Assembly (NCBI GenBank): GCA_964518765.1
Contig: CAZFJC010000005.1
Location: 54,403-118,402, forward strand
DNA: 64,000 nucleotides
DNA from: an uncultured bacterium
GTDB taxonomy: Bacteria; Edwardsbacteria; AC1; EtOH8
Direction of reading: 5' to 3'
Below the pieces are notes generated by a model. The model did no database searches. It saw nothing but the letters and a program-made list of their open reading frames with translations, and was not told the origin of the DNA. The position numbers and the translations under genes are program-made. This document shows, piece by piece, positions 9,696 to 55,988 of this stretch (within the stretch, counting starts at the first letter, position 1; each line of letters starts with the position of its first letter).

Positions 9696-10464
9696 GGGCC
9701 AAGCTCTCTATTTTTCGAGAAAAGCTGTTTCGATCATCGATCTCCACCACCACCGCATTCAGCCTGACCTCCCCCTCGGCCGTCTCGAACTTCTGCGGCA
9801 TCCCGGTCAAGAAGCGCCTGAGCACCGCCTCCTTCTGCATGCCGATCACCCCGTCGAAGCCTCCGGTCATGCCGACGTCGGTGATGTAGGCCGTGCCATT
9901 GGGGAGTATCCTCTCGTCGGCCGTCTGGACGTGGGTGTGGGTTCCGATGACCGCCGTGGCCCGTCCGTCGAGATGCCAGCCCAAGGCGACTTTTTCCGAC
10001 GTAGCCTCGGCGTGGATATCGACAACGATGATATCAGTTTCCTTCCTGATTTTTTCGACCATCTCGGTGGCCTTGCGGAAAGGGCAGTCCAACGCCTGCA
10101 TGAACACCCGGCCCTGCAAACAGAAGACCCCGACCCTGGCTCCATTTCTGGCTTTAAAGATGCCGGACCTGGCGCCCACCGCTCCCTCCGGGTAATTGGC
10201 CGGGCACAGTATCCTGGGCTCCTTGGCTATATACCACACGGAGTCCTTCTTGTCCCACAGGTGGTTTCCCCCCGTCAGGACGTCTATCCCCAGGCTGAGC
10301 AGTTCACGTCCCACGCTCTCGGTGATGCCGAACCCGGCCGCCGCGTTCTCTCCATTGGCGATGACGAAGTCGATCCCGTGCCTCTCGGCCAGCCCCGGCA
10401 GCAGCTGTTTGACCGCCTGTCTCCCCGGCCGCCCGATAATATCGCCGATGAATAATACTTTCAA
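9667..10464 (-). CDS. ymdB: TIGR00282-family metallophosphoesterase (YmdB-like 2',3'-cNMP phosphodiesterase)
   Basis: MKVLFIGDIIGRPGR...GENAAAGFGIT...GGNHLWD. Sits next to rny as in the B. subtilis rny-ymdB operon. Confidence 0.85.
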   Translation of the reverse strand: MKVLFIGDIIGRPGRQAVKQLLPGLAERHGIDFVIANGENAAAGFGITESVGRELLSLGIDVLTGGNHLWDKKDSVWYIAKEPRILCPANYPEGAVGARSGIFKARNGARVGVFCLQGRVFMQALDCPFRKATEMVEKIRKETDIIVVDIHAEATSEKVALGWHLDGRATAVIGTHTHVQTADERILPNGTAYITDVGMTGGFDGVIGMQKEAVLRRFLTGMPQKFETAEGEVRLNAVVVEIDDRNSFSRKIESLALESRYGNSN

Positions 10465-10508
10465 ACTGACGTTCGACGTACCACGTTCAACGTATTAACG
10501 CTAATACG
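10465..10508. repeat. AT-rich ACGT-periodic element filling the rny / ymdB intergenic gap
   Basis: Minus strand reads ACGTtgaACGTggtACGTcgaACGTcag: four ACGT units at 7-nt spacing, i.e. ACGTNNN repeated four times. Confidence 0.45.
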
Positions 10509-12071
10509 TTACTTGGCGTAACCGATCCCCCGCGTCTCCCGGATGACCGTCACCTTGATCTGCCCGGGGTACTGCAGGGAGCTTTCTATCTTCTGGGCGA
10601 TCTCGTTGGCCATATCCGTGGTCCGGGCGTCGTTGACCTCCTCCGGGGTGACGATGATGCGCACCTCGCGCCCGGCCTGGATGGCGTAGGCCTTGCTAAC
10701 CCCCTTGAAGGAGTAGGCCACCTCCTCCAGCTTCTCCAGCCGCTTGATATAGGCCTCCAGAGACTCGCGACGGGCGCCGGGCCTGGCCCCGGAGATGGCG
10801 TCGGCCGCGGCCACCAGCACCGAGATGGGCGAGATAGCCTCGATGTCCTCGTGATGGGCCCCGATGGCGTTGACCACCACCGCGTTCTCCCCGTATTTCT
10901 TGGCCAGGTCCATGCCGATCTGGCTGTGGGTGCCCTCGACGCTATGGTCCACTGCCTTGCCCAGGTCGTGCAGTAGGCCGGCCCGCTTGGCCAGGGCCTG
11001 GTCCAGCTCCAGCTCGCCGGCCATGGTGGCCGCCAGGAAGGCCACCTCCTTGGAGTGCTGTAGAACATTCTGCCCGTAGCTGGTACGGTACTTCAGCCTG
11101 CCCAGCAGCTGGATGACCTCGGGGTGCAGTCCGGGCACCCCCACCTCCAGGGCCACCGACTCTCCCGCCTCTTTGATGGAGCGGTCGACCTCGCCTTTGG
11201 CCTTTTCGATGACCTCCTCTATTCGGGCCGGTTGGATACGTCCGTCGGCTATCAGGCGCTCCATGGCCATCCGGGCCACCTCCCGCCGCACCGGGTCGAA
11301 GGCCGAGATGACGATGGCTTCGGGGGTGTCGTCTATCAGCACCTCCACCCCGGTGGCCGCCTCAAAGGCCCTGATGTTCCGGCCCTCGCGGCCGATGATC
11401 CTCCCCTTCATCTCGTCCGAGGCCAGCGGCACCACGCTGACGGTGGTCTCGGCGGTGTGCTCGCCGGCGTAGCGCTGGATGGCCTGGACGATTATCTGCT
11501 TGGCCTCGCGCTCGGCGTTCTCCCTGGCCTCGTCCCTGATGTTCTTGATGAGCTGGGCCGCCTCGTGCCTGGCCTGGACCTCCAAGTTCTGCATCAGGAT
11601 CCTCTTGGCCTCCTCCTGGGTGAGCCCGGCGATCTGCTCCAGCTTGGTGTTCTGCTCGTCTATCAGGGTGGTCAGCCGCTCGTCCTTGGCCCGCAGCACC
11701 CGCTCCTTGGCAGTGGCCTCGCGCTCCCGGTTCTCCACCTCCCGCTCCTTGCGGTTGACGATGTCCACCTTGTGGTCGATCTGCTTCTCCCTCTCGATCA
11801 GCCGCCCCTCCAGCTCCTTGAGCTCCGCCTTCTTGGCCTGGGTCTCCTTCTCGAAATTCGACTTTAGCCGGTACCACTCCTCTTTGGCCTGTACCTGGGC
11901 TGCCTTCTTGTAGGTGGCCGACTCTCGTTGGGCCTCGGCCACGATCTTCTCGGCCAGCTTCTCGGCCCCGGCCAGCCTGGCCTCGCCCATCTTCTGGTGC
12001 AGCAGATAGCCCAGAAAAAAACCCAGGGCCGCACCTAACACCGATATGATGATCCAGATCACCACTCCCAT
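10509..12071 (-). CDS. rny: ribonuclease Y
   Basis: 520 aa with an N-terminal TM helix, coiled-coil, KH domain and HD domain (LLHDLGKA). Confidence 0.95.
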
Positions 12072-44465: not shown

Positions 44466-45038
44466 TTAGCATCCCCGGCCCAGCTCGAAGGCCTTCCTGT
44501 TCATCTCCACCGTCTTGGGCGGAACCCGCCTGGTGATAACCTCAAGCCACTTGTCGGTCGGAAGCTCCAGCCTTTTGGAGAGCGCCCCCAAAAGCACCAT
44601 GTTGATGGTCTTGGGACTGCCCGCCTGCTCCGATAGCCTCAGACCGTCGCAGAGCACCGTGCCCGGGACCTGGGATTTGATGCGGTCGATGATGTCTTGC
44701 GGGTACTCGGCCTTGCCGGTGGCCACCGTCATCGGCATCACCTGCTGTCGGTTGATTATTACGGCGCCGTCCCTCTTCAGGAAGTCCAGGTAGCGGGCGG
44801 TCTCCATCTCCTCGAAGGAGAGGACGACGTCGGCCTCGCCCTGGCGGATCAGCGGCGAATGGACCCTGTCCCCGTAACGCACGTGGCTGACCACGCTGCC
44901 GCCCCGCTGGGCCATGCCGTGGACTTCTGATTTCTTGGCGTCGAATCCGCAGGCCATGGCCGTCTCGGCGATGATGTCCCCGGCCAAGAGCACCCCCTGA
45001 CCCCCGACGCCGCAGATGACTATGTTTACGGTTTTCAC
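44466..45038 (-). CDS. iorB: indolepyruvate:ferredoxin oxidoreductase beta subunit
   Basis: GTG start (VKTVNIVICGVGGQGVL) with AGGAG RBS 7 nt upstream. Confidence 0.85.
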   Translation of the reverse strand: MKTVNIVICGVGGQGVLLAGDIIAETAMACGFDAKKSEVHGMAQRGGSVVSHVRYGDRVHSPLIRQGEADVVLSFEEMETARYLDFLKRDGAVIINRQQVMPMTVATGKAEYPQDIIDRIKSQVPGTVLCDGLRLSEQAGSPKTINMVLLGALSKRLELPTDKWLEVITRRVPPKTVEMNRKAFELGRGC

Positions 45039-45091
45039 TTGTCGGCTCCTTGTTCGTGGCAACATATTAACGTTGGACGTTTGACGTAACG
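45039..45091. repeat. ACGT-periodic AT-rich element 3' of the 4HB gene; direct repeat of 45455..45491
   Basis: Plus strand ATTAACGTTGGACGTTTGACGTAACGCTATGACCGTTTTC versus the upstream copy ATTCAACGTTACTACGCCTAACGTTACTACGTTCACCGTTTC. Confidence 0.5.
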
Positions 45092-45454
45092 CTATGACCG
45101 TTTTCTCAAGCTTTGTTGCAGCCCCTTCAGCATCACGCTGATCTCGATCGCTTCCTGTTGATTGCACCGGTATTCTTCGGATCCCAGGAAACCGATTTCT
45201 TTCGCTATATCTAATCCTGCCATTACCTCGAAAGTTGAACGCTGAGCGATGTCTAGGAACCTTATAAACTCCTTGGTCGATCTGCTTCCCGCTCCCTCCG
45301 CGATATTCAAAACGATGGAGTAGGCCGCCCGGCGCAACTGTGAGGTTAATCCCAGAACTTCGCTTTTCGGAAACTTGGCAGTCAATTCATAAATAGTCTT
45401 CGTATAAGCGACCGCCTTCTGATAAACTCGAAGGTCCCTGAACTTGTTCATCAC
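45092..45454 (-). CDS. four-helix-bundle protein (TIGR02436, 23S rRNA intervening-sequence protein family)
   Basis: 120 aa (KFRDLRVYQKAVAYTKTIYELTAKFPKSEVLGLTSQLRRAAYSIVLNIAEG...). Inserted between iorA and iorB. Confidence 0.8.
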   Translation of the reverse strand: MMNKFRDLRVYQKAVAYTKTIYELTAKFPKSEVLGLTSQLRRAAYSIVLNIAEGAGSRSTKEFIRFLDIAQRSTFEVMAGLDIAKEIGFLGSEEYRCNQQEAIEISVMLKGLQQSLRKRS

Positions 45455-45491: not shown

Positions 45492-47246
45492 TCACCGTTT
45501 CATCGCCTTCTTGGGGCACAGCGACGCACACACCTCGCACCCGGTGCAGAAGATGGGGTCGATGTGCGATTTCTTCCTCTTGGCGTCGAAGGAGATGGCC
45601 GGGCAGCCCAGCTTGAGGCACAGCCTGCAGCCCACGCATTCATCTTCGTCAACGTGCAGGGGCGGCTTGAACTTCTTGTCTATCAGGATGCAGGGCGACT
45701 TGGCGATGACCACCGAGACACCGTCGTGGCTCGCCGCCGCCTTGAGCGCCGCCTCGGTAGCCTTGAGGTCAAGCGGGTCCACGGTTTTGACGTCCTTCAC
45801 CCCGCACGCCCGGCAGATCTCCTCCAGCGACAGCACCGGAGCCGGTTGGCCCTGGAGTGTTTTCCCCGAGCCCGGGTTCTCCTGGTGGCCGGTCATGGCC
45901 GTGATCCGGTTGTCCAGTATCACCACCGTGCCCCGGGCGTTGTTGTAGACCATGTCGATCAGGCCCGTTATCCCGGAGTGGAAGAAGGTAGAGTCGCCGA
46001 TGACGGCCACTGTCTTTTGGGCCATCTCCGGGCCTAGGGCCTTCTCCAGGCCCATGGCCGCGGTCACCGAGCCGCCCATGCAGATGACGGTGTCCATGGC
46101 CTCCAGCGGCTCCATCATCCCTAAAGTGTAGCAGCCGATGTCGCCGGTGGCCGTCAGCTTCAGCTTGTTGATGGCGTAGAACACTCCGCGGTGCGGACAG
46201 CCGGGACAGAGCACCGGCGGCCGGCCCGGCAGCTCCATGTTCTTATAGGTCGGCTCCGCCTGTAGGCCGAAGGCCCGGGCCACCGCCGTCGGGTCCAGCT
46301 CGCCGACGATAGGCACCCTGTCCTTCCCGGAGATCGGCCTGTCGAACTGGCACTTGCCCTTGACGGAATAGCCCTGGGCCTTTATCTGCTCCTCCAGGAA
46401 CGGGTCGTTCTCCTCGATGACATAGACCTCGTCCACCGACGAGATGAAGTTGGCAATCAGCTTGCCGGGCGGCGGGTAGGTAAGTGCTAGTTTTAAATAG
46501 GAGGCATCCGGGAAGACTTCTTTGGCGTACTGGTAGGAGATACCGCTGGTGATGATGCCCAGCTTGGTGCTCCCCCTTTCAATCTTGTTCCCCTGAAAAG
46601 TCTCGCCGTACTCGGCCAGCTTCTTCAGCCTCTCCTCAACCTTGACGTGCAGCTTCCTGGCATGGGCCGGAATGGTTATCCTTTTTTTGATATCCTTGAC
46701 GTATCCCATCGGCTTGTGCTCCCTCCTCTCACCCGGCTCCACCGCCCCCTTGGAGTGGGAGATGCGGGTGGTCAGCCTTAGCAGCACCGGGGTGTCGAAC
46801 TTCTCGGAGATCTCGAAGGCCAGCCTGGCGTACTCCAGGCACTCCTGGGAGTCCGAAGGCTCCAGGCAGGGTATCTTGGCCATCTTGGCGTAGTAGCGGT
46901 TGTCCTGTTCGTTCTGAGAGGAGTGCATGCCCGGGTCGTCGGCCGACACCACCACCAGCCCCCCGGTGGCCCCGATGTAGCCCATGGAGAACAGGGGGTC
47001 GGCGGCCACGTTCAGGCCCACGTGCTTCATGCAGGTCAGGGCCCGGGCTCCGCCGAAGCTGGCCCCGGCCGCCACCTCCAGGCCCACCTTCTCGTTGGTT
47101 GCCAGCTCGGCGTAGACCTCCTGGTACTTGGCCAGGTTCTCCAGTATCTCGGTGGAGGGCGTCCCCGGATAGGCCGAGACCACGTTGACCCCGGCCTCCC
47201 AGGCCCCCCGGGCCACCGCCTCGTTTCCGGAAAGGAGTACTTTCAT
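45492..47246 (-). CDS. iorA: indolepyruvate:ferredoxin oxidoreductase alpha subunit
   Basis: 584 aa with a TPP-binding domain and a C-terminal 2x[4Fe-4S] region (CVGCRLCLKLGCP, CTGCEVCASLCP). Confidence 0.9.
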   Translation of the reverse strand: MKVLLSGNEAVARGAWEAGVNVVSAYPGTPSTEILENLAKYQEVYAELATNEKVGLEVAAGASFGGARALTCMKHVGLNVAADPLFSMGYIGATGGLVVVSADDPGMHSSQNEQDNRYYAKMAKIPCLEPSDSQECLEYARLAFEISEKFDTPVLLRLTTRISHSKGAVEPGERREHKPMGYVKDIKKRITIPAHARKLHVKVEERLKKLAEYGETFQGNKIERGSTKLGIITSGISYQYAKEVFPDASYLKLALTYPPPGKLIANFISSVDEVYVIEENDPFLEEQIKAQGYSVKGKCQFDRPISGKDRVPIVGELDPTAVARAFGLQAEPTYKNMELPGRPPVLCPGCPHRGVFYAINKLKLTATGDIGCYTLGMMEPLEAMDTVICMGGSVTAAMGLEKALGPEMAQKTVAVIGDSTFFHSGITGLIDMVYNNARGTVVILDNRITAMTGHQENPGSGKTLQGQPAPVLSLEEICRACGVKDVKTVDPLDLKATEAALKAAASHDGVSVVIAKSPCILIDKKFKPPLHVDEDECVGCRLCLKLGCPAISFDAKRKKSHIDPIFCTGCEVCASLCPKKAMKR

Positions 47247-47389
47247 GCGTTCTCCATTTAATATTCGCCCGATTTCTTGCCTGTCTCTCTTTGACTTTTA
47301 TTATAACCCATGCCTGGGCCGAAGTCAAAGCAGAAAATGAAAAGCCCGGACGGCTGACGTCCGGGCTGGGCTGCTTTCGCCTGTTTCTG

Positions 47390-47438
47390 ACCACCCCTCG
47401 CTCCCCTCCTTAGAAAAGGAGGGGATTAAGGGGTGGTT
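47390..47438. repeat. REP-like palindromic element, copy 1
   Basis: ACCACCCCT-cgc-TCCCCTCCTT-agaa-AAGGAGGGGA-ttaa-GGGGTGGT. Confidence 0.55.
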
Positions 47439-47473
47439 GGTTATATGCTCTTCGAAGTTCTCGGCCGTCCCCC

Positions 47474-47510
47474 GTTCCACTCCTTGATTAAGGAGGGGAT
47501 AAAAGGGGAG
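47474..47510. repeat. REP-like palindromic element, partial copy 2
   Basis: CCACTCCTTgattAAGGAGGGGAtaaaAGGGGAG. Confidence 0.45.
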
Positions 47511-47511
47511 G

Positions 47512-48741
47512 TCAGTGTCCCGCCCCCTCGTCCGGCTTGGTGATCTCCAGCGCCTTGGCGATCACCTTGACTGCCCAGTCCACGTCCCGCTTGGATATCA
47601 CCAGCGGCGGGGCGAAGCGGATGGTCTGCTCGTGGGTGTCCTTGGCCAGTATCCCGGACTTCATCATGGCCAGGCAGTAGGGCCGGGCCCGCCCCGCCTC
47701 CAGCTTCAGCTCCATGCCGGTCAGCAGGCCCATGCCCCGGACCTCCTTGATCTTGTCGGTCTTGATCTTCAGCAACTGCTTGCGGAAGTAGTCGCCCAGC
47801 GACCTGGCCCGCTGGTCCAGCTTCTCGCGCCTGAGCACGTCCAGGGCGGCCATGCCGATGGCGCAGGCCAACGGATTGCCCCCGAAGGTGCTGCCGTGCT
47901 GCCCGGGCCCGATGACGTCCATCACCTCCCAGCAGGAGAGCACCGCCGAAACCGGGTAAAGCCCGCCGCCCAGCGCCTTGCCGACGATCAGGACGTCCGG
48001 CTTGGCCCCCTCGTGCTGCCAGCAGAACGGTTTTCCGGTGCGGCAGAATCCGGTCTGCACCTCGTCCAGCATGAAGAGGACGTTGTTGCGGTCGCAGATC
48101 TCCTTGCATCTGGTCAGGTACCCCTTGGAGGGCACCTTGACCCCGGCCTCGCCCTGGATGGGCTCCACCATGAAGCCGGCGGTGTTCTGGTTGATGGCCT
48201 TCTCCAAGGCCTCGGGGTCGTTGTAGGGTATGATCTTGAAGCCGGGCATGGCCGGCCCGTAGCCGCCGTAGGCGTCGGGATCGGTGGAGAAGCTGACGAT
48301 GGTGCTGGTGCGGCCGTGGAAGTTCTCGGAGCAGACGATGATCTCGGCCTTGTCCTTGTCGATGCCCTTCTTCTCGTAGCCCCACTTGCGGCAGAGCTTG
48401 ATGGCCGTCTCCACCGCCTCGGCCCCGGTGTTCATGGGCAGGGCCACCTCCATCTGGGCGTACTGGCACAGCTTCTGGAGGAAGACCCCCAGCTTGTCGT
48501 TATGGAAGGCCCGGCTGGTCAGGGTCAGCTTGTCCGACTGCTGCTTCATGGCCCGGATGATGGCCGGGTGGCGGTGACCCTGGTTGACGGCCGAGTAAGC
48601 CGACAGCATATCCAGGTACTTCTTCCCTTCCACATCCCACACCCAGATCCCCTGTGCCTTGGCGATGACCACCGGCAGCGGATGATAGTTGTGGGCCCCG
48701 TATTTCTCGGTAAGGTTGATCAGGTCCTTGCTTTTGGCCAT
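47512..48741 (-). CDS. rocD: ornithine aminotransferase (class III PLP aminotransferase)
   Basis: 409 aa, AT-III fold with PLP lysine region. Confidence 0.8.
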   Translation of the reverse strand: MAKSKDLINLTEKYGAHNYHPLPVVIAKAQGIWVWDVEGKKYLDMLSAYSAVNQGHRHPAIIRAMKQQSDKLTLTSRAFHNDKLGVFLQKLCQYAQMEVALPMNTGAEAVETAIKLCRKWGYEKKGIDKDKAEIIVCSENFHGRTSTIVSFSTDPDAYGGYGPAMPGFKIIPYNDPEALEKAINQNTAGFMVEPIQGEAGVKVPSKGYLTRCKEICDRNNVLFMLDEVQTGFCRTGKPFCWQHEGAKPDVLIVGKALGGGLYPVSAVLSCWEVMDVIGPGQHGSTFGGNPLACAIGMAALDVLRREKLDQRARSLGDYFRKQLLKIKTDKIKEVRGMGLLTGMELKLEAGRARPYCLAMMKSGILAKDTHEQTIRFAPPLVISKRDVDWAVKVIAKALEITKPDEGAGH

Positions 48742-48901
48742 TTGCTTTTCTCCTTTTCGGTTCGGGCCTGAATATCACTGAAAAGACGATGGTATCACCC
48801 TGAGCCCGGCATCGTGGCTGTCAGGTTGAAGGGTGGCGCTGTCATCCTTCAATTGGTCAGACAGAATGCTTTCCCAGGATGACATCGAGCTCATCTGTTT
48901 C

Positions 48902-49804
48902 CTACCTCTTTCCCCCGAAGAGGTCCTTCCTGATGCCCAGGTAGTTGGCGATGTTGGCCCTTTTGTCGATCACCGGGGCTATCCTCCCGATCCTGGAGGT
49001 TAAGACAGTGGTCACCCCCGGCCCGTGCCCGGCCAGGACGCAATCCGAATGAACCACCACCCCGATGGACACCGAGCCCTTGCGGAAGCAGCGGCCGTAG
49101 CAGTTGTCGGTGTTCTCCAGGGCGACGATGTCGCCGAAGCGCACCTTGTCGATGCCCAGCCTCCTCAGCGTCTCCTTGTCGGCGGTGGTGATGTCGTAGT
49201 CGCCGCTGGCCACCGAGGCCGATCCCAGACCCGAGCCCATCAGCTCGGCCGGTATGGAGCAGACCACCGGGACCTCCAGCATCCTCCGAGAGTTGACCCG
49301 CGCGCCCAGTTTGTGAAGCAGTCTGGGATCTATATTGAAGACCCGTATCTCCGGCAGGTCCAGCAGGGCCAGGCCCAGGCCGTAAGACTTTATCTGGATC
49401 TTATCTCCGATGACCAGCTGCTCCAGCACCTTCCAGTCGAAGTCCACCAGCACGTGCTCGATGCCGCCGTGCTTGCCGGTGACCCATCCCTTGGCGCCCT
49501 TGGCGGCGCCGCTGACCAGGGTGGCCTCGTTGCCGATGCAGGCCAGGGTGTTCAGGCCGGCGTTCTCCGGGCTGGATGGCTCCTTGCTCTCCCGATTGCT
49601 TATAGAGACTCCGGGCTCCATGTGGTCGGCGGCCCAGCCGAAGGCCGGATCGCCCACCCGGATGTTGAAGGTGATGCCCCCGGTTCCGGGCAGGATCATG
49701 GCCTGGCCCTCATGGCTCACCCGGTAGGGCGAGCGGAACTTGGGCGAGGTGATCTCTCCGATCACCGACTGCATCACCAGCTGTTTCTCGTTGGTCTTTA
49801 ACAT
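48902..49804 (-). CDS. DUF4438-family protein of unknown function
   Basis: 300 aa, no assigned function. Confidence 0.55.
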   Translation of the reverse strand: MLKTNEKQLVMQSVIGEITSPKFRSPYRVSHEGQAMILPGTGGITFNIRVGDPAFGWAADHMEPGVSISNRESKEPSSPENAGLNTLACIGNEATLVSGAAKGAKGWVTGKHGGIEHVLVDFDWKVLEQLVIGDKIQIKSYGLGLALLDLPEIRVFNIDPRLLHKLGARVNSRRMLEVPVVCSIPAELMGSGLGSASVASGDYDITTADKETLRRLGIDKVRFGDIVALENTDNCYGRCFRKGSVSIGVVVHSDCVLAGHGPGVTTVLTSRIGRIAPVIDKRANIANYLGIRKDLFGGKR

Positions 49805-49816
49805 CTCAGCATCTTT

Positions 49817-50380
49817 CTAAATCGTGTGTCTGCCTTTCCAGCCCCAGACCGCCAGGGCCGCTATCCCGGCCTTGGCTATATCGCCAGTGAGGAAGGGGAG
49901 CGCCCCCATCTGCAGGGCGCGGCTTACGTCGAGATGGAGAAGGGCGGCTAGCCAGGCAGAGCCCGCGGAAAGTATCAACACGGACCCGAGAGCCATGGCG
50001 CCTATCGTCGTTCCGATCCCCCGCCTTGCCTCGAGCATCCCGCCGATGCTGTAAGCGGCGGCCACGAAGCCCAGGAGATAACCCCCGGTCGGCCCTAGCA
50101 GATGTCCGATGCCGCCGGCCGCGCCCTGGAACACCGGCAGGCCGGCCGCTCCGACAGCCAAATATAGGGCCTGCGAGGCCGCCGCCCTGCGCCCCAGGAA
50201 GCCGGCCGACAGCAGGACGGCCAGCGTCTGCAGGGTCAGCGGCACCGGGGTGAACGGCAGCGGCACCCGGACGAAGGCCGCCAGGGCGGTCATCAGGGCG
50301 AAGGCGGATATGCCCAGGGCGTCGGCCAGCGCCTTCGGGGCCTCGACCGGCCGGGCCAGGGCTAGCTGGATGTTTTTCAT
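49817..50380 (-). CDS. bioY: BioY-family biotin transporter component
   Basis: Start at Met28 (MKNIQLALARPVEAP...); six TM helices. The first 27 codons of the track ORF are the translated palindrome. Confidence 0.8.
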   Translation of the reverse strand: MKNIQLALARPVEAPKALADALGISAFALMTALAAFVRVPLPFTPVPLTLQTLAVLLSAGFLGRRAAASQALYLAVGAAGLPVFQGAAGGIGHLLGPTGGYLLGFVAAAYSIGGMLEARRGIGTTIGAMALGSVLILSAGSAWLAALLHLDVSRALQMGALPFLTGDIAKAGIAALAVWGWKGRHTI

Positions 50381-50418
50381 AGAGGTGTCTGTAAAAATCA
50401 TAACTCTTAGGAATGGAT

Positions 50419-50474
50419 CCCGACCACCCCTCGTTTCCCTCCTTGATGAAGGAGGGGACAAAGGGGTGGTCGGG
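50419..50474. repeat. REP-like palindromic element, copy 3
   Basis: CCCGACCACCCCT-cgtt-TCCCTCCTT-gatg-AAGGAGGGGA-caa-AGGGGTGGTCGGG; near-perfect 55-bp palindrome. Confidence 0.55.
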
Positions 50475-50477
50475 TGA

Positions 50478-51848
50478 TTACGGTCCGAACTCCAGGTCCG
50501 GCCCCTTGAAGTGGCGGTGCTCCACCACCGTCAGCACGTGGTCCAGAATCTCCAGGCCGGCCTTGGCCTCCTCGCGGCTTAGGACCAGCGGCGGGCAGAT
50601 CCTCAGGGTGTTGGTGCCGCAGCCCAGCATCAAAAGTCCCCGCTTGAAGGCCTCCTGGATGACCGCCTCCATGGCCTCGTGGGCCTTCTCCCGGGTCCTT
50701 TTATCCTTGACTATCTCCACCCCGATCATCAGACCCTTGCCACGAACGTCACCCATGGAGCAGTGTTTCTTCTGCATCCGCCGCAGCTCGGCCGTCATGT
50801 ACTCGCCCACCAGCTGGGCGTTTCGCATCAGACCCTTGTCGATGAGGTCCATGGTGGCCAAAGCGGCGGCGCAGCACACCGGGTTCCCGCTGAAGGTGTT
50901 GCCGTGGGATCCCGGCTTCCAGTCCATTATCTTCGAGGGGGCGATGATGGCCCCCATGGGTAGGCCCGAGGCGATGCCCTTGGCCGCGGTGATGATGTCC
51001 GGCCTCACCCCGAAGTGCTCGATAGCGAACCATTTGCCGGTGCGGCCCATGCCCGACTGGATCTCATCGGCAATCATCAGGATACCGTGCCGGTCGCACA
51101 GCTGGCGCAGGGCCTTGACCGCCTCGGCCGGAGGCACTACGTAGCCGCCCTCTCCCTGGATGGGTTCTAATAGCAGTCCGGCCACCTCCTCCGGGGGGAC
51201 GATGGTCTTGAGGACCACATCCTCGATGTACTTGACGCACTCCAGCGAGCAGCCGGGATAAGACTTGTTGAAGACGCAATGGTAGCAGTTGGGATAGGGC
51301 ACGTGGGTGACGCCCGGCATGGTGGGAAAGAAGCCCTTCTTCTGGGTGGGCTTGGAGCCGGTGCAGGAGACGGCCCCCATGGTCCGGCCGTGGAAGGCCC
51401 CGATGAAGGCCAGGAACTGCGGCCGCTTAGTGTGGTAGCGGGCCAGCTTCAGCGCCCCCTCGATGGCCTCGGCCCCGGAGTTGCAGAAGAAGACCTTGCT
51501 GTCGCGGCCGGTGGGCGACACTTGCCGGAGCCTCTCGGCCAGCTCCACCTCGGGCAGGTAGTAGAAGTCGGTGCCCGAGTAGTGGATGAGTTTTCCCGCC
51601 TGGTCGGCGATGGCCTTGACCACCTTGGGATGACAGTGGCCGGTGGAGTTGACGGCGATGCCGGCGCAGAAGTCCAGCAGCTGGTTGCCGTCGACGTCGG
51701 TCAGCCACACCCCCTGGCCGCGGTCGATGACCGCCGGGTAGGCTCGGGTGTACGACGGGGAGAGCGACTTCCGATCCCGGCCGACGATAGCCCTGGCCTT
51801 GGGACCGGGGAAGTTCTTGCTTATCTGGGGGCGCTTTCTTATCGGCAT
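50478..51848 (-). CDS. class III aminotransferase (4-aminobutyrate / omega-amino acid aminotransferase-like)
   Basis: 456 aa, AT-III family (LIADEIQSGMGRTGKWFA). Confidence 0.85.
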   Translation of the reverse strand: MPIRKRPQISKNFPGPKARAIVGRDRKSLSPSYTRAYPAVIDRGQGVWLTDVDGNQLLDFCAGIAVNSTGHCHPKVVKAIADQAGKLIHYSGTDFYYLPEVELAERLRQVSPTGRDSKVFFCNSGAEAIEGALKLARYHTKRPQFLAFIGAFHGRTMGAVSCTGSKPTQKKGFFPTMPGVTHVPYPNCYHCVFNKSYPGCSLECVKYIEDVVLKTIVPPEEVAGLLLEPIQGEGGYVVPPAEAVKALRQLCDRHGILMIADEIQSGMGRTGKWFAIEHFGVRPDIITAAKGIASGLPMGAIIAPSKIMDWKPGSHGNTFSGNPVCCAAALATMDLIDKGLMRNAQLVGEYMTAELRRMQKKHCSMGDVRGKGLMIGVEIVKDKRTREKAHEAMEAVIQEAFKRGLLMLGCGTNTLRICPPLVLSREEAKAGLEILDHVLTVVEHRHFKGPDLEFGP

Positions 51849-51851
51849 AGT

Positions 51852-53093
51852 CTACTTCTTGGGATAGGAGATCGTTTCCAGAATGTTTATCCTCCTCTTC
51901 TTGAGCTCCTTCATGAAAACCGGGTAGAGCTCGCTGTCGACGGCGTCCTCCGGAGCCACGATCCCCTTCTGGGATATCTGCCCCCTGGCCACCATCCGGG
52001 CGGCGATGGCCACCGGAAAACCGGTGACCCGCATCATCGAGGAGATATTGTTCTTCTTGTCGGCCGCGTCCCACATGTGGTACTCGATCTTTATCCTGCG
52101 GCCCTTCCTCTTCCCGACCACCGTGTTGTACATGACGCAGACATCGGTCTCGCCCGGGCCGGCCACCAGCCTGGGGGTGATGCGGGACAGCAGGAACTCG
52201 CGGGGCGATATCTTAATCCCCTTGAAGTCCACCGGCTCCAGGTCCAGCATACCGCACTCCTTGAGGGTGAGCACCCCGGGCCAATGCCCTGGCCAGCGCA
52301 CCGTCTTCTCGGCGAATTCCTTCAGCTGGGGCCGGGTGTAGATGAAGCTGGGCATGCCCGGGGTGACGGCGCACTGCAGCTCCTCGTTCTTGCCCAGCTT
52401 GTTGAACACGAATGTCTCCAGATCGGTGGCCGCGTCGACTTCCACCACCTTGCCATTCTTCACCACCTTCAGCTTGATCATGTACTCGCGCAACACGTGA
52501 TCGAAGGCCCAGGTGATCATGTAGCGCAAAGGGTGGTTGGCGCTGTCCTTCTTGGAGGGCACCCCGCCCACCCGGGCGATGGCCACCTCGGCCCGGTCCA
52601 TCTTGCGGATGGCCTCGCCCACCGTGACGTTGCTCAGGCCCGGAGCAAAGCCCATCCCGTCCAGGAAGGTGACCTTGTTTTTTATGGCCGTCTCGTGCAG
52701 CCAGTCGCCGTACTGGTCCAGGGTCATCCCCTGGGGCAGCTCCAGTCCCTCCACCTCGTAGGCATCCGGCCGGCGATGGTACTCCTCCAGCATGTCCACG
52801 ATGTTCAGGCCGGCCTCGACCGCGTAGTGGGCGATCTTGTAACTGCGGCGTCGGTCGGGCAGGGCCAGCACTCCGACGTCGTACTGCTTCATCAGCGACT
52901 TGACGGCCGCCTCGTCAGCCACGTCGGCGGTGTGGATGGCGACACGGTCGCTGCCCAACCAGTTCTTGACCTTCTGCAGCGACTCGGCGTTGCGGCCCAC
53001 CAGGCCGATCTGCTTGACCTCGTCGTCCTTGGCCAGGTCCCAGGCCACGGCCGAGCCGATCTTGCCCGAGCCCCCGAAAACCAGCACCTTCAT
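51852..53093 (-). CDS. saccharopine dehydrogenase-family NAD(P)-binding oxidoreductase
   Basis: Rossmann MKVLVFGGSGKIG at the N-terminus; start at the third Met, with AAGGAG RBS 6 nt upstream. Confidence 0.8.
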   Translation of the reverse strand: MKVLVFGGSGKIGSAVAWDLAKDDEVKQIGLVGRNAESLQKVKNWLGSDRVAIHTADVADEAAVKSLMKQYDVGVLALPDRRRSYKIAHYAVEAGLNIVDMLEEYHRRPDAYEVEGLELPQGMTLDQYGDWLHETAIKNKVTFLDGMGFAPGLSNVTVGEAIRKMDRAEVAIARVGGVPSKKDSANHPLRYMITWAFDHVLREYMIKLKVVKNGKVVEVDAATDLETFVFNKLGKNEELQCAVTPGMPSFIYTRPQLKEFAEKTVRWPGHWPGVLTLKECGMLDLEPVDFKGIKISPREFLLSRITPRLVAGPGETDVCVMYNTVVGKRKGRRIKIEYHMWDAADKKNNISSMMRVTGFPVAIAARMVARGQISQKGIVAPEDAVDSELYPVFMKELKKRRINILETISYPKK

Positions 53094-53255
53094 GGCCATC
53101 TCCTTGATTAAAAACATATAAACATATAATTTTACCAGATTTTTACCGAACTGTCAATGATTTGGATCAAACGCCTTCAGTTCCGGGCCATGACATCTAA
53201 TCCTTTGCTATGCTTGATGTTGTCTAGATTTCTTACTACCCTCTGACAATGGTCA

Positions 53256-53285: not shown

Positions 53286-53307
53286 TAATATTCTTGGGGT
53301 TTTTCTC

Positions 53308-53360
53308 TGGGGGATCGTCCAACGGCAGGACACGTGGCTCTGGACCACGGTATCGGGGTT
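53308..53360 (+). pseudogene. truncated or disrupted duplicate of tRNA-Gln
   Basis: 53 nt identical to 53500..53552 (acceptor 5' strand through T-stem 5' strand), followed by ~76 nt of unrelated GC-hairpin sequence and a degenerate T-arm/acceptor remnant (CGGGGAATCCCTGTCCatgCCCCA). Confidence 0.55.
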
Positions 53361-53499
53361 CTCAGCCTGACGCCCGGCAAGGGGTCGGGCGGCGGCTGAC
53401 CCGCCGCTTATCATGCCTTATATCATTGCTCAGGCGGGGAATCCCTGTCCATGCCCCATCTCGTTTTTGTTAATCGTCGGAAAACTTGTAAAAAATAAC

Positions 53500-53574
<75 letters not shown>

Positions 53575-54069: not shown

Positions 54070-55503
54070 TCACTTCCAGCCCAGCGCCTGGCGCACCCCC
54101 TGGGCGTAGGCCGGGTCGGCCTTCCGGAAGTTCTCCAACTGGCGCTCGATGATCTCCCTGGGCACGCCCTGCATCGACCCGGCGATGGCCGCATGCAGCC
54201 GGTCGCGCTCGGCCTGCGGCATCAGGCGGTAGAGGTTGCCCGCCTGGGTGTAATCATCGTTGCCCTTCCGGTGGTCGTAGCGGTCGGCGTCGCCGCTGAT
54301 CCGCAGCGGCGGCTCCTTGAACCGCGGATCCTCGGCCGGCCCGCCGAAGCTGTTGGGCTCGTAATTGACCGCGCCGCCACCGTTGCCGTCGAACCGCATC
54401 CCGCCGTCCTTGTAGTAGTTGTTCACCTCGCAACGGGGTTTGTTCACCGGCAGGCTCTGATAGTTGACCCCCAGCCGGTAGCGCTGGGCGTCCGCATAGG
54501 AGGTCATCCGCAGCTGCAGCATCTTGTCCGGGCTGTGGCCGATGCCGGGGGGCACGTCCTTGGGGCAGAAGGCCGCCTGCTCCACCTCGGCGAAATAGTT
54601 CTCCGGGTTGCGGTTCAATTCGACAATGCCGACGTCGATCAGCGGGTAATCCTTGTGCGGCCAGACCTTGGTGACGTCGAAGGGGTGGTAGGGCACCTTC
54701 TCGGCGTCCAGCTCGGGCATGATCTGGACCTGCATTTTCCACTTGGGGAAGTCACCCTTGGCGATGGACTCGAACAGGTCCCGCTGGTGGCTCTCGCGGT
54801 CCGCGGCGATGACCTTGGCCGCCTCGTCGTCGGTCAGGCACTGTATGCCCTGCATGGTCCGGAAGTGGAACTTGACCCAAAACCGCTCACCCTTGTCGTT
54901 GAACAGGCTGAAGGTGTGGCAGCCGAACCCGTGCATGTGGCGGTAGCTTTTGGGGATGCCGCGGTCCGAGAACAGGATGGTCACCTGGTGCACCGACTCC
55001 GGCGACAGCGACCAGAAGTCCCAGGCGGCGGTGGCGCTGCGCAGGTTGGTCTTGGGGTCGCGTTTCTGGGTGTGGATGAAATCCGGGAACTTGTAGGGGT
55101 CGCGGATGAAGAACACCGGGGTGTTGTTGCCCACAATGTCCCAGTTGCCTTCCGAGGTATAGAACTTCATGGCGAAACCGCGCACGTCGCGCTCGGCGTC
55201 GGCCGCGCCCCGCTCCCCGGCCACGGTGGAGAACCGGAAGAAGCACTCGGTCTTGGTCCCGGGCTTGAACACCGCTGCCTTGGTGTACTTGGTGATATCG
55301 CCGTCGATGGTCAGGATGCCGTAGGCGCCCGAGCCCTTGGCGTGCACCACCCGCTCCGGGATGCGCTCCCGGTTGAAGTGGGCGTGCTTCTCGAACAGTT
55401 GCCAGTCCTGCGCCAGCAGCGGGCCCCTGGGGCCGGCCGTCAGGGAGTTCTGGTTGTCGGCTACCGGGATTCCGGCGTCGGTGGTCAGTTTCTTTTTCAC
55501 CAT
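54070..55503 (-). CDS. katA: monofunctional haem catalase
   Basis: Start MVKKKLTT with AAGGAGG RBS. Catalase motifs ([27 protein letters not shown]). Confidence 0.95.
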
Positions 55504-55517
55504 TCTCCTCCTTTCGT

Positions 55518-55988
55518 TCATTCTTTGACCTGGGTGGTGAGGAAGGTGGGGAGCGTCATCTGGCCTATCTGGTCGCGCAGCTCCTCGATCTCGTCCAGGT
55601 GGCGGTCCTCGTCGCCCAGGATCCTCACCAGCATCTCCCGGGTAGCGTGGTCCCTGACCTCGCCGGCCAGGGCGATGGCGTCGTTGTAGGCCTTGATGGC
55701 GCCGGCCTCGGCCGCCAGGTCGTTCTCCAGCTGGGCGGGCACGGCGTCCCCGATGGATATCTTGTTCAGACTTGACACCGTCGGTCTGCCCTCCAGGAAC
55801 AGGATGCGGCCGATCAGCGCCTCGGCGTGCTTCATCTCGGCGATGGCCCGCTTCTCGAAGTGCTGGTGCAGCTTGCCGTAGCCCCAGCTCTCGCACATCT
55901 CGGCGTGGACGATGTACTGGTTGATGGCCGTCAGCTCGTCGGCCAGCAGCGAGTTGAGGGCCTCGATGAGTTTGGGGTTCCCCTTCAT
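55518..55988 (-). CDS. bfr: bacterioferritin
   Basis: 156 aa, ferritin-like di-iron motifs (EL.AINQY..HA, E..HAE). Confidence 0.9.

What the first reader, a model, noticed from the sequence alone, without database searches (positions are those of the whole stretch)
47512..53093. Cluster of two class-III aminotransferases, a DUF4438 protein, bioY and a saccharopine-dehydrogenase-family enzyme: candidate uncharacterised amino-acid / polyamine pathway
Minus-strand gene order is saccharopine-DH-like, gabT-like, bioY, DUF4438, rocD-like, running into iorAB. Saccharopine-dehydrogenase-family enzymes include carboxy(nor)spermidine dehydrogenase and lysine / ornithine / diaminopimelate-type dehydrogenases, and two omega-aminotransferases alongside one suggest a diamine or basic amino-acid route. 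The DUF4438 member has no assigned role and would be a candidate for the missing step. The shared 3' palindromes described above hint that the two aminotransferase genes are co-regulated.
Basis: inference. Interest (0 to 1): 0.5.

Follow-up and report, generated by a model that had tools for sequence, protein, structure and literature searches.

The report
Lineage-specific ornithine/lysine aminotransferase operon carrying DUF4438
The genes are there as described and probably form one operon for removing the side-chain amino group of ornithine or lysine, but the protein of unknown function (DUF4438) sits beside these enzymes only in this small bacterial lineage, so it is more likely a passenger than a missing pathway step.

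Summary
The minus strand at 47512-53093 encodes a saccharopine-dehydrogenase-family protein, a gabT-like class-III aminotransferase, BioY, DUF4438 and a rocD-type ornithine aminotransferase, with iorA/iorB downstream.

- **Dehydrogenase:** it ranks with archaeal L-lysine 6-dehydrogenase PH1688, not with carboxy(nor)spermidine dehydrogenases.
- **gabT-like enzyme:** it is closest to the P. horikoshii ornithine/lysine delta-aminotransferase.
- **Pathway reading:** a basic-amino-acid theme holds. The polyamine reading does not.
- **DUF4438:** it is widespread and about 55-60% identical across phyla, with no conserved neighbourhood. Among 119 flanking genes from 31 non-Bathyarchaeia genomes, no Pfam family recurs more than four times. 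A class-III aminotransferase was found in only one of them by BLAST, and no saccharopine dehydrogenase homologue in any.
- **Synteny:** the order aminotransferase-(BioY)-DUF4438-aminotransferase is kept only in Edwardsbacteria/UBP2 relatives (74-100% DUF4438 identity). The dehydrogenase is a recent addition.
- **Palindromes:** the shared 3' palindromes are copies of a dispersed repeat. They are missing at the same sites in two relatives and occur in at least 120 unrelated metagenome contigs.
- **iorAB:** it lies behind a terminator-like hairpin and has its own promoter-like site.

Overall this is ordinary and of low to moderate interest.

The parts
53129..53157 (-). Sigma-70-like promoter candidate (TTGACA-17-TAAAAT with TG) upstream of the SDH-like gene
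   Evidence: 11 of 12 matches. Consensus match only; function is inferred.
51852..53093 (-). Saccharopine-dehydrogenase-family oxidoreductase, 413 aa, LysDH-like
   Evidence: best PDB match is PH1688/3abi at 120-122 bits; gene callers give 413 aa, and orthologues are about 70% identical in several FCB phyla. An AAGGAG precedes the ATG.
50478..51848 (-). Class-III aminotransferase of the PRK05769 family, nearest to archaeal ornithine/lysine delta-aminotransferase PH1423
   Evidence: It starts 3 nt after the SDH-like stop codon.
50419..50474 (.). 56-nt palindromic repeat copy A, 4 nt after the gabT-like stop codon and about 40 nt before the bioY ATG
   Evidence: -44.5 kcal/mol, z -6.9. Absent in L084, where the gabT-bioY gap is 21 nt.
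49817..50380 (-). BioY, the biotin-transporter S component (187 aa)
   Evidence: Absent from relatives L086 and L001.
48902..49804 (-). DUF4438 protein, TM1086 family (300 aa)
   Evidence: It starts 12 nt after bioY.
47512..48741 (-). RocD-type ornithine--oxo-acid aminotransferase (409 aa)
   Evidence: TIGR01885 above cut-off. B. anthracis OAT 2e-145 and human OAT 9e-138.
47459..47507 (.). Palindromic repeat copy C (degenerate), starting at the rocD stop codon
   Evidence: -24.2 kcal/mol.
47389..47440 (.). Palindromic repeat copy B
   Evidence: -40.2 kcal/mol, z -7.4.
47343..47367 (-). Intrinsic-terminator-like hairpin plus U tract, the likely end of the operon
   Evidence: The same stem (GCCCGGACG...CGUCCGGGC) is kept after rocD in L084.
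47300..47328 (-). Separate promoter-like site for iorA (TTGACT-17-TATAAT)
   Evidence: 11 of 12 matches.
45492..47246 (-). iorA, a neighbouring and probably separate transcription unit
   Evidence: TIGR03336 729 bits against a cut-off of 651.
44466..45167 (-). iorB. The ORF as listed is probably too long; the family match begins near residue 44 and callers in relatives give 190 aa.

Best explanation
This is a five-gene operon, specific to one lineage, in an Edwardsbacteria/UBP2-type bacterium. Its enzymatic content is the removal of the omega-amino group of basic amino acids.

- A PH1423-type ornithine/lysine omega-aminotransferase and a RocD-type ornithine aminotransferase would convert ornithine (and probably lysine) to glutamate-5-semialdehyde/P5C or to 2-aminoadipate-6-semialdehyde/P6C.
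- A LysDH-like member of the saccharopine-dehydrogenase family is translationally coupled to the first aminotransferase. It would make or consume the same kind of semialdehyde using NAD(P).
- BioY and DUF4438 are co-transcribed, but they are most likely passengers inherited with the block rather than pathway steps.
- The strong hairpin repeats after the two aminotransferase genes are copies of a dispersed repeat. At most they act as mRNA 3'-end or segment stabilisers.
- iorAB is a neighbouring unit.

Shown here: gene identities, family ranking, synteny range and repeat distribution. Inferred: substrates, direction of the reactions, co-transcription, and the passenger status of DUF4438.
For: - The PH1423 substrates (L/D-Orn, L/D-Lys) are taken from PMC9986279.
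- Gaps are short (3, 97, 12 and 160 nt). There is one promoter-like site upstream and one terminator-like site downstream, and the terminator stem is conserved in L084.
- The core order gabT-like-(BioY)-DUF4438-rocD-like is kept in the window, L084, L001, L090, L092 and L086, at 74-100% DUF4438 identity.
- The SDH-like gene is present only in the window and L084. Its roughly 70%-identical orthologues in Zixibacteria, Hydrogenedentes and Aminicenantes stand alone.
- A WOR-3 homologue of the gabT-like enzyme (59% identical) sits 17 nt after an aldehyde dehydrogenase. That is the usual omega-aminotransferase/semialdehyde pairing.
- DUF4438 has no conserved partner. BLAST over 80 genome loci found class-III aminotransferases only in close relative L001 and in L017, and no SDH homologue. 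Among 119 neighbours from 31 non-Bathyarchaeia loci there were 158 Pfam families, none in more than 4.
- In Bathyarchaeia the neighbours are housekeeping genes such as rpS26e, CBS-domain proteins and thermosome.
Against: - DUF4438 stays wedged between the two aminotransferases with 38-64 nt gaps across the whole clade. This could reflect a functional tie rather than inheritance.
- The dehydrogenase is only about 120 bits from PH1688 and hits no curated NCBIfam model, so its substrate is open.
- The PRK05769 family also contains amino-acid racemases.
- No P5C reductase or dehydrogenase, arginase or lysine-pathway gene was found among the window ORFs scanned, so the route is incomplete locally.
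- Only 80 of at least 587 genome loci carrying DUF4438 were seen.
Confidence: 0.55

Rival explanations
1. DUF4438 is a real, still unrecognised enzyme of amino-acid catabolism. It might act on the cyclic imine or semialdehyde products P5C/P6C, or on a 2-oxo acid. In this lineage it has been captured in the operon it serves.
For: - It sits between two omega-aminotransferases with short gaps in all six relatives.
- Independent hints occur elsewhere. A four-subunit 2-oxoacid:ferredoxin oxidoreductase operon ends 11-58 nt upstream in L002, L025 and L045.
- M55 and M20 peptidases flank it in L041.
- A class-III aminotransferase lies 813 nt upstream in L017.
- The alignment has many invariant His, Asp, Glu and Cys residues, as expected of an enzyme.
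Against: - No family recurs in more than 4 of 119 neighbours across 31 lineages.
- At 69% identity (L091) the context is an ABC transporter and a metallophosphoesterase.
- In 28 Bathyarchaeia loci it sits 47 nt upstream of rpS26e among housekeeping genes.
Confidence: 0.15
2. This is a polyamine route. The SDH-family protein is a carboxy(nor)spermidine or CAPA dehydrogenase, and a class-III aminotransferase supplies a diamine precursor, as in the Vibrio dat/ddc-CANSDH-CANSDC cluster.
For: CASDH, CANSDH, CAPADH, LysDH, saccharopine reductase and homospermidine synthase all belong to the same Pfam family (PMC10599626). An aminotransferase next to a member of this family recalls the norspermidine cluster, but that comparison rests on my own knowledge.
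Against: - CASDH 8deb scores 22.7 bits (E 4e-4) against 121.7 bits for PH1688.
- CAPADH 4RL6 is not hit at E<=1e-3, although CAPADH, CASDH and CANSDH share about 40% identity with each other.
- No carboxynorspermidine decarboxylase was seen in the scanned window ORFs.
- Orthologues of the dehydrogenase stand alone in other phyla.
Confidence: 0.05
3. The gabT-like protein is a PLP-dependent amino-acid racemase or epimerase, not an aminotransferase. The cluster would then deal with D-amino acids.
For: The same family includes Ala/Ser racemase (9wqz, 364 bits), isoleucine 2-epimerase (328 bits) and a broad-specificity racemase (313 bits) (PMC6047364).
Against: - The best match by a clear margin is the aminotransferase PH1423/7vno at 448 bits. 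PH1423 showed no racemase activity.
- A WOR-3 homologue is paired with an aldehyde dehydrogenase.
Confidence: 0.1

Closest known systems
L-lysine 6-dehydrogenase PH1688 of Pyrococcus horikoshii (PDB 3abi)
   Same: It has the same two-domain Sacchrp_dh architecture and an N-terminal GxGxxG motif. It is by far the best solved relative at 120-122 bits.
   Different: The similarity is only moderate and comes in two alignment pieces. The window protein is about 50 residues longer (413 aa against 365 aa). No curated NCBIfam model is hit, and activity is unknown. That PH1688 is LysDH rests on my own knowledge of the 3abi entry.
Ornithine/lysine delta(omega)-aminotransferase PH1423 / TK2101 of Thermococcales (PDB 7vno)
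   Same: It is the best solved relative of the gabT-like protein (448 bits, E 3e-133). The NCBIfam PRK05769 score is above the cut-off. Its substrates are L/D-Orn and L/D-Lys with 2-oxoglutarate (PMC9986279).
   Different: The host here is bacterial. Specificity is untested, and the family also holds racemases. Identifying 7vno with PH1423 rests on the matching 454-aa description.
RocD / mitochondrial ornithine aminotransferase
   Same: TIGR01885 equivalog scores above its cut-off. E-values are 1e-145 to 1e-137 against B. anthracis and human OAT.
   Different: NF003145 (PRK04073) falls below its own cut-off (585 against 656). There is no rocA or rocF-type partner nearby.
TM1086 of Thermotoga maritima (PDB 3dcl, 3n99), the DUF4438 family
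   Different: Nothing is known of TM1086's function. No paper in the searchable library mentions the family.
REP/BIME-type and MITE-like intergenic palindromic repeats
   Same: Short, strong palindromes. They are dispersed in many copies, mostly intergenic, often just after stop codons, and sometimes in tandem. They are absent from orthologous sites in close relatives.
   Different: No RAYT-type transposase was seen. The core is found in contigs spanning 31-63% GC, which is unusually broad for a REP family. It contains a Shine-Dalgarno/anti-Shine-Dalgarno-like pair (CCUCCUU/AAGGAGG). A DUF559-like ORF is adjacent in 6 of 80 loci.

Membership tests
L-lysine 6-dehydrogenase (EC 1.4.1.18, PH1688 type) | Sacchrp_dh_NADP plus Sacchrp_dh_C two-domain architecture with a GxGxxG dinucleotide motif | tested here: met
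   N-terminus MKVLVFGGSGKIGSAV.
L-lysine 6-dehydrogenase (EC 1.4.1.18, PH1688 type) | Closer to characterised LysDH than to other subfamilies of the saccharopine-dehydrogenase family | tested here: inconclusive
   The PDB ranking favours PH1688: 121.7 bits, against AASS 46, saccharopine reductase 36 and CASDH 22.7. However, no tree with bacterial LysDHs was built, and no NCBIfam equivalog is hit.
L-lysine 6-dehydrogenase (EC 1.4.1.18, PH1688 type) | NAD(P)-dependent oxidative deamination of the epsilon-amino group of L-lysine | not testable with these tools
   Needs an enzyme assay.
Carboxy(nor)spermidine / CAPA dehydrogenase | About 40% identity to CASDH, CANSDH or CAPADH (PMC10599626) | tested here: not met
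   8deb scores 22.7 bits, E 3.7e-4. 4RL6 is not among the hits at E<=1e-3.
Carboxy(nor)spermidine / CAPA dehydrogenase | Partner carboxy(nor)spermidine or CAPA decarboxylase gene | tested here: not met
   None was found in the cluster or among about 45 window ORFs scanned with Pfam. The rest of the genome could not be seen.
PH1423/TK2101-type ornithine/lysine omega-aminotransferase (NCBIfam PRK05769) | Curated family model above its cut-off, and nearest characterised relative is the aminotransferase rather than a racemase or GabT | tested here: met
   651.6 bits against a cut-off of 552. 7vno scores 448 bits, against racemases at 364 and 313 and PuuE at 312.
PH1423/TK2101-type ornithine/lysine omega-aminotransferase (NCBIfam PRK05769) | Transamination of the omega-amino group of Orn/Lys with 2-oxoglutarate | not testable with these tools
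   Needs an enzyme assay.
Ornithine--oxo-acid transaminase (RocD/OAT, TIGR01885) | Equivalog model above its trusted cut-off | tested here: met
   564.6 bits against a cut-off of 378.4. PDB OATs score 1e-145 to 1e-137.
DUF4438 / TM1086 family | Both Pfam halves (PF14505, PF20999) and the TM1086 fold | tested here: met
   By BLAST over 80 genome loci, class-III aminotransferases were found only in close relative L001 and in L017, and no SDH homologue anywhere. In 31 non-Bathyarchaeia loci no neighbour Pfam family recurs more than 4 times among 119 genes. The co-occurrence is met only inside the Edwardsbacteria/UBP2 clade.
REP/MITE-like dispersed palindromic repeat | Many dispersed copies in unrelated contexts, variable between close relatives | tested here: met
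   At least 120 metagenome stretches, with several copies on single large contigs. No homologue of any cluster gene occurs in 420 kb around 80 of them. The repeat is absent at the orthologous sites in L084 and L086.
REP/MITE-like dispersed palindromic repeat | Associated transposase (RAYT) or terminal inverted repeats with target-site duplication | tested here: inconclusive
   No recurrent transposase-like ORF was found among the flanks. A DUF559-like ORF is adjacent in 6 of 80 loci. Target-site duplications were not examined.

The most novel reading that the evidence does not exclude
DUF4438 (the TM1086 family) is an unrecognised enzyme of anaerobic amino-acid catabolism. It might act on P5C/P6C or on the semialdehydes made by omega-aminotransferases. 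The Edwardsbacteria/UBP2 operon would then be the first genomic context to reveal its pathway. The OFOR-linked and peptidase-linked copies in other phyla would be further traces of the same role.
Probability: 0.12. Interest if true: 0.6.

Novelty: new member of a known kind. Interest (0 to 1): 0.25.

Why it matters
DUF4438 is a large and very conserved family. It has more than 7000 clusters at 90% identity, occurs in at least 587 species genomes, and is 55-60% identical between archaea and bacteria. Crystal structures have been available since at least 2009, yet no function is known. A reliable genomic context would therefore be valuable.

This locus gives only a weak, lineage-restricted hint. 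Its main value is negative. It shows that the family has no stable operon partner, so its function will have to come from phyletic profiles or biochemistry.

The enzymatic part adds a bacterial example of the archaeal-type Orn/Lys omega-aminotransferase. Here it is paired with a LysDH-like dehydrogenase whose orthologues are highly conserved across FCB candidate phyla and are uncharacterised.

Tried and rejected
- **Literature:** searches for DUF4438, PF14505, PF20999, TM1086, 3N99 and 3DCL found no functional paper. The one PF14505 hit was a mislabelled accession in an ECOD paper.
- **Weak Pfam matches for three DUF4438 members at E<=10:** nothing beyond the two DUF halves.
- **Fold search:** it gave no functional lead.
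- **Rfam scan of the palindromes:** only sub-threshold miRNA-like hairpin matches, rejected as chance.
- **A regulatory reading of the palindromes:** rejected because of their distribution.
- **BioA-type reading of either aminotransferase next to BioY:** rejected. TIGR00508 scores 229 against a cut-off of 405 for rocD-like, and it is not among the top hits for gabT-like.
- **Other window ORFs:** no proline, arginine, lysine or polyamine genes were found. Those scanned are housekeeping, including Dxs, IspA, XseA, RNase Y, PheT, DinB, EF-Ts, PyrH, CdsA, RseP and MnmA.
- **Greedy ORF calling in this 62% GC DNA:** it picks antisense ORFs such as 47515-48771(+) and 51279-53111(+). These were ignored.


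Full report
**1. What is there**

| Gene | Coordinates | Evidence |
|---|---|---|
| Saccharopine-dehydrogenase-family protein | 51852-53093 | 413 aa from the ATG behind an AAGGAG. Gene callers on identical metagenome contigs give the same start. |
| Class-III aminotransferase, gabT-like | 50478-51848 | NCBIfam PRK05769, 651.6 bits against a cut-off of 552 |
| BioY | 49817-50380 | Pfam BioY 1e-37 |
| DUF4438 | 48902-49804 | Both Pfam halves |
| RocD-type ornithine aminotransferase | 47512-48741 | TIGR01885, 564.6 bits against a cut-off of 378.4 |

Downstream lie iorA (45492-47246), a 23S_rRNA_IVP four-helix-bundle gene (45092-45454), iorB, a methyltransferase and a TIGR00375/MJ0043_C protein. 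Upstream lie two tRNA-Gln genes on the plus strand, then a catalase, AhpC, a Fur-family regulator and a GGDEF protein.

**2. Transcription units (inferred from consensus scans)**

- A promoter-like site (TTGACA-17-TAAAAT) lies at 53157-53129.
- A strong terminator-like hairpin with a U tract lies at 47367-47343, after rocD.
- A second promoter-like site (TTGACT-17-TATAAT) at 47328-47300 precedes iorA.
- The terminator stem is conserved after rocD in the 86%-identical relative L084.
- Intergenic gaps are 3 nt (SDH to aminotransferase), 97 nt (aminotransferase to bioY, filled by a palindrome), 12 nt (bioY to DUF4438) and 160 nt (DUF4438 to rocD).

The five genes therefore look like one operon, and iorAB looks like a separate unit.

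**3. The three enzymes**

The dehydrogenase's best solved relative is PH1688 of P. horikoshii (3abi). It scores 120-122 bits, E about 1e-34, over both domains. That 3abi is L-lysine 6-dehydrogenase rests on my own knowledge of the entry. Other members of the family score far lower: human AASS 46 bits, saccharopine reductase 36 bits, carboxyspermidine dehydrogenase 8deb 22.7 bits. The CAPA dehydrogenase structure 4RL6 named in PMC10599626 is not hit at all. This places the protein on the LysDH side of the family and away from the polyamine enzymes. At this similarity orthology is not shown, and no curated NCBIfam model matches.

The gabT-like protein is closest to 7vno, a 454-aa P. horikoshii protein (448 bits). 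This corresponds to PH1423, reported as an ornithine delta-aminotransferase that accepts L/D-Orn and L/D-Lys (PMC9986279). PH1423 showed no racemase activity (PMC6047364). Racemases and GabT/PuuE score lower, at 364, 313 and 312 bits. A 59%-identical WOR-3 homologue sits 17 nt after an aldehyde dehydrogenase, the classical omega-aminotransferase/semialdehyde pairing.

The third enzyme matches bacterial and human ornithine aminotransferases at 1e-145 to 1e-137.

All three point to omega-deamination of ornithine or lysine to the semialdehydes P5C and P6C. No proline, glutamate, arginine, lysine or polyamine partner gene was found among the other window ORFs scanned. Those are housekeeping genes.

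**4. DUF4438**

- **Family size and conservation.** There are more than 7000 clusters among the 8000 candidates scored. Members are 55-60% identical between the window protein and members from Bathyarchaeia, Atribacteria, Clostridia, Scalindua and WOR-3.
- **Invariant residues.** The alignment has many invariant Gly, His, Asp, Glu and Cys residues, for example in ADHxEPGVS, GKHGGIEHVL, GDYDI, HSDC and GHGPGV.
- **Literature.** No paper in the searchable library discusses the family.

**5. Does DUF4438 travel with these enzymes?**

Eighty species-level genome loci were fetched.

- BLAST with the window proteins found class-III aminotransferases only in the close relative L001 (UBP2 UBA4780) and, at 29% identity, in L017. 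It found no saccharopine dehydrogenase homologue.
- In 31 non-Bathyarchaeia loci, the 119 flanking genes hit 158 Pfam families. None occurs more than four times: Aminotran_5 four times, then Mn catalase, M20 peptidase, protoglobin and rhodanese three times each.
- In Bathyarchaeia the fixed neighbours are rpS26e (a median of 47 nt downstream on the same strand, in 28 loci), CBS-domain proteins, a CDP-alcohol phosphatidyltransferase-like protein, dihydroorotase and thermosome.
- Scattered contexts with an amino-acid flavour do exist. A four-subunit 2-oxoacid:ferredoxin oxidoreductase operon lies directly upstream in L002, L025 and L045. M55 and M20 peptidases flank the gene in L041. A galactokinase-like kinase occurs in four loci.

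**6. How far the arrangement goes**

| Locus | DUF4438 identity | Arrangement |
|---|---|---|
| Window and identical contigs | 100% | SDH-AT-BioY-DUF4438-AT |
| L084 | 86% | SDH-AT-BioY-DUF4438-AT |
| L090 (Edwardsbacteria) | 78% | AT-x-BioY-DUF4438-AT (x, an unannotated 170-aa ORF); the rocD-like gene is present but uncalled |
| L092 | 75% | AT-BioY-DUF4438-AT |
| L001 | 89% | AT-DUF4438-AT |
| L086 | 74% | AT-DUF4438-AT |
| L091 | 69% | Unrelated context |

The core block is therefore specific to the Edwardsbacteria/UBP2 lineage. BioY is variable, and the dehydrogenase is a recent addition. Its roughly 70%-identical orthologues in Zixibacteria, Hydrogenedentes and Aminicenantes stand alone.

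**7. The palindromes**

Three copies exist in the window: 50419-50474, 47389-47440 and 47459-47507. All follow the two aminotransferase stop codons. Their predicted RNA hairpin energies are -44.5, -40.2 and -24.2 kcal/mol.

- They are absent at the same sites in L084 and L086.
Several copies lie on single large contigs.
- The host contigs span 31-63% GC. None of the 80 loci read carries a homologue of any cluster gene.
- No Rfam family matches.

They are members of a dispersed REP/MITE-like repeat, not a shared regulator of the two aminotransferase genes. A REP-like effect on mRNA segment stability is possible but untested.

**8. Verdict**

The basic-amino-acid reading is reasonable. The polyamine reading and the special role for DUF4438 are not supported. 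The palindromes and iorAB are not part of a common regulon. The locus is a lineage-specific assembly of known enzyme families with a co-transcribed protein of unknown function.

I put 0.55 on the operon-with-passengers explanation. I put about 0.12-0.15 on DUF4438 being a true component of amino-acid catabolism. Interest is 0.25.

Noticed in passing
window 47389-47440, 47459-47507, 50419-50474; loci L093-L172: The palindromic repeat has the consensus RACCACCCCTTnnTCCCCTCCTTnnnnAAGGAGGGGA, often closed by GGGGTGGT. Its core occurs in at least 120 metagenome contigs spanning 31-63% GC. It often lies right after a stop codon and is sometimes in tandem. The central stem pairs a Shine-Dalgarno-like sequence with an anti-Shine-Dalgarno-like one. 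A/T variants in the outer arms are not compensated. A DUF559-like small ORF lies within about 100 nt in 5 of 80 loci and within 600 nt in a sixth. No Rfam family matches.
   Followed up: partly
window 45092-45454 (-): A 120-aa 23S_rRNA_IVP (four-helix-bundle) gene is inserted between iorA and iorB. The same insertion is present in relatives L084 and L086, but not among the genes called in L092.
   Followed up: partly
window 53307-53378 and 53500-53573 (+); 54070-55896 (-): Two tRNA-Gln(CTG) genes and a catalase gene lie between the operon promoter and the AhpC/Fur genes. In relative L084 the GGDEF gene lies about 500 nt from the SDH-like gene. There the gene order is Fur-AhpC-GGDEF, whereas in the window it is GGDEF-Fur-AhpC-catalase. 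This indicates a local rearrangement or insertion.
   Followed up: no
L020-L080 (Bathyarchaeia loci), e.g. L020:10926-11219: In 28 Bathyarchaeia genomes DUF4438 is followed on the same strand, at a median of 47 nt, by ribosomal protein S26e. The weak structural neighbours of DUF4438 are translation-protein-type beta-barrels.
   Followed up: partly
L002:7083-10861, L025, L045: In WOR-3, Latescibacterota and one unclassified MAG, a complete delta-alpha-beta-gamma 2-oxoacid:ferredoxin oxidoreductase operon ends 11-58 nt upstream of DUF4438. In L002 and L045, where downstream sequence is available, V-type ATPase genes follow.
   Followed up: partly
L070:9092-9988 and about 10001-10855: Two DUF4438 genes lie in tandem in one Firmicutes MAG.
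   Followed up: no
L214:4496-7401: The WOR-3 homologue of the gabT-like aminotransferase (59% identical) is paired with an aldehyde dehydrogenase 17 nt upstream. This suggests the family's usual partner is a semialdehyde dehydrogenase.
   Followed up: no
L087, L088, L089: The LysDH-like dehydrogenase is about 70% identical across Zixibacteria, Hydrogenedentes, Aminicenantes, Latescibacteria, Eisenbacteria and WOR-3. It is a solitary gene in the three genomes inspected. It is an unusually conserved, uncharacterised subfamily of the saccharopine-dehydrogenase family.
   Followed up: partly
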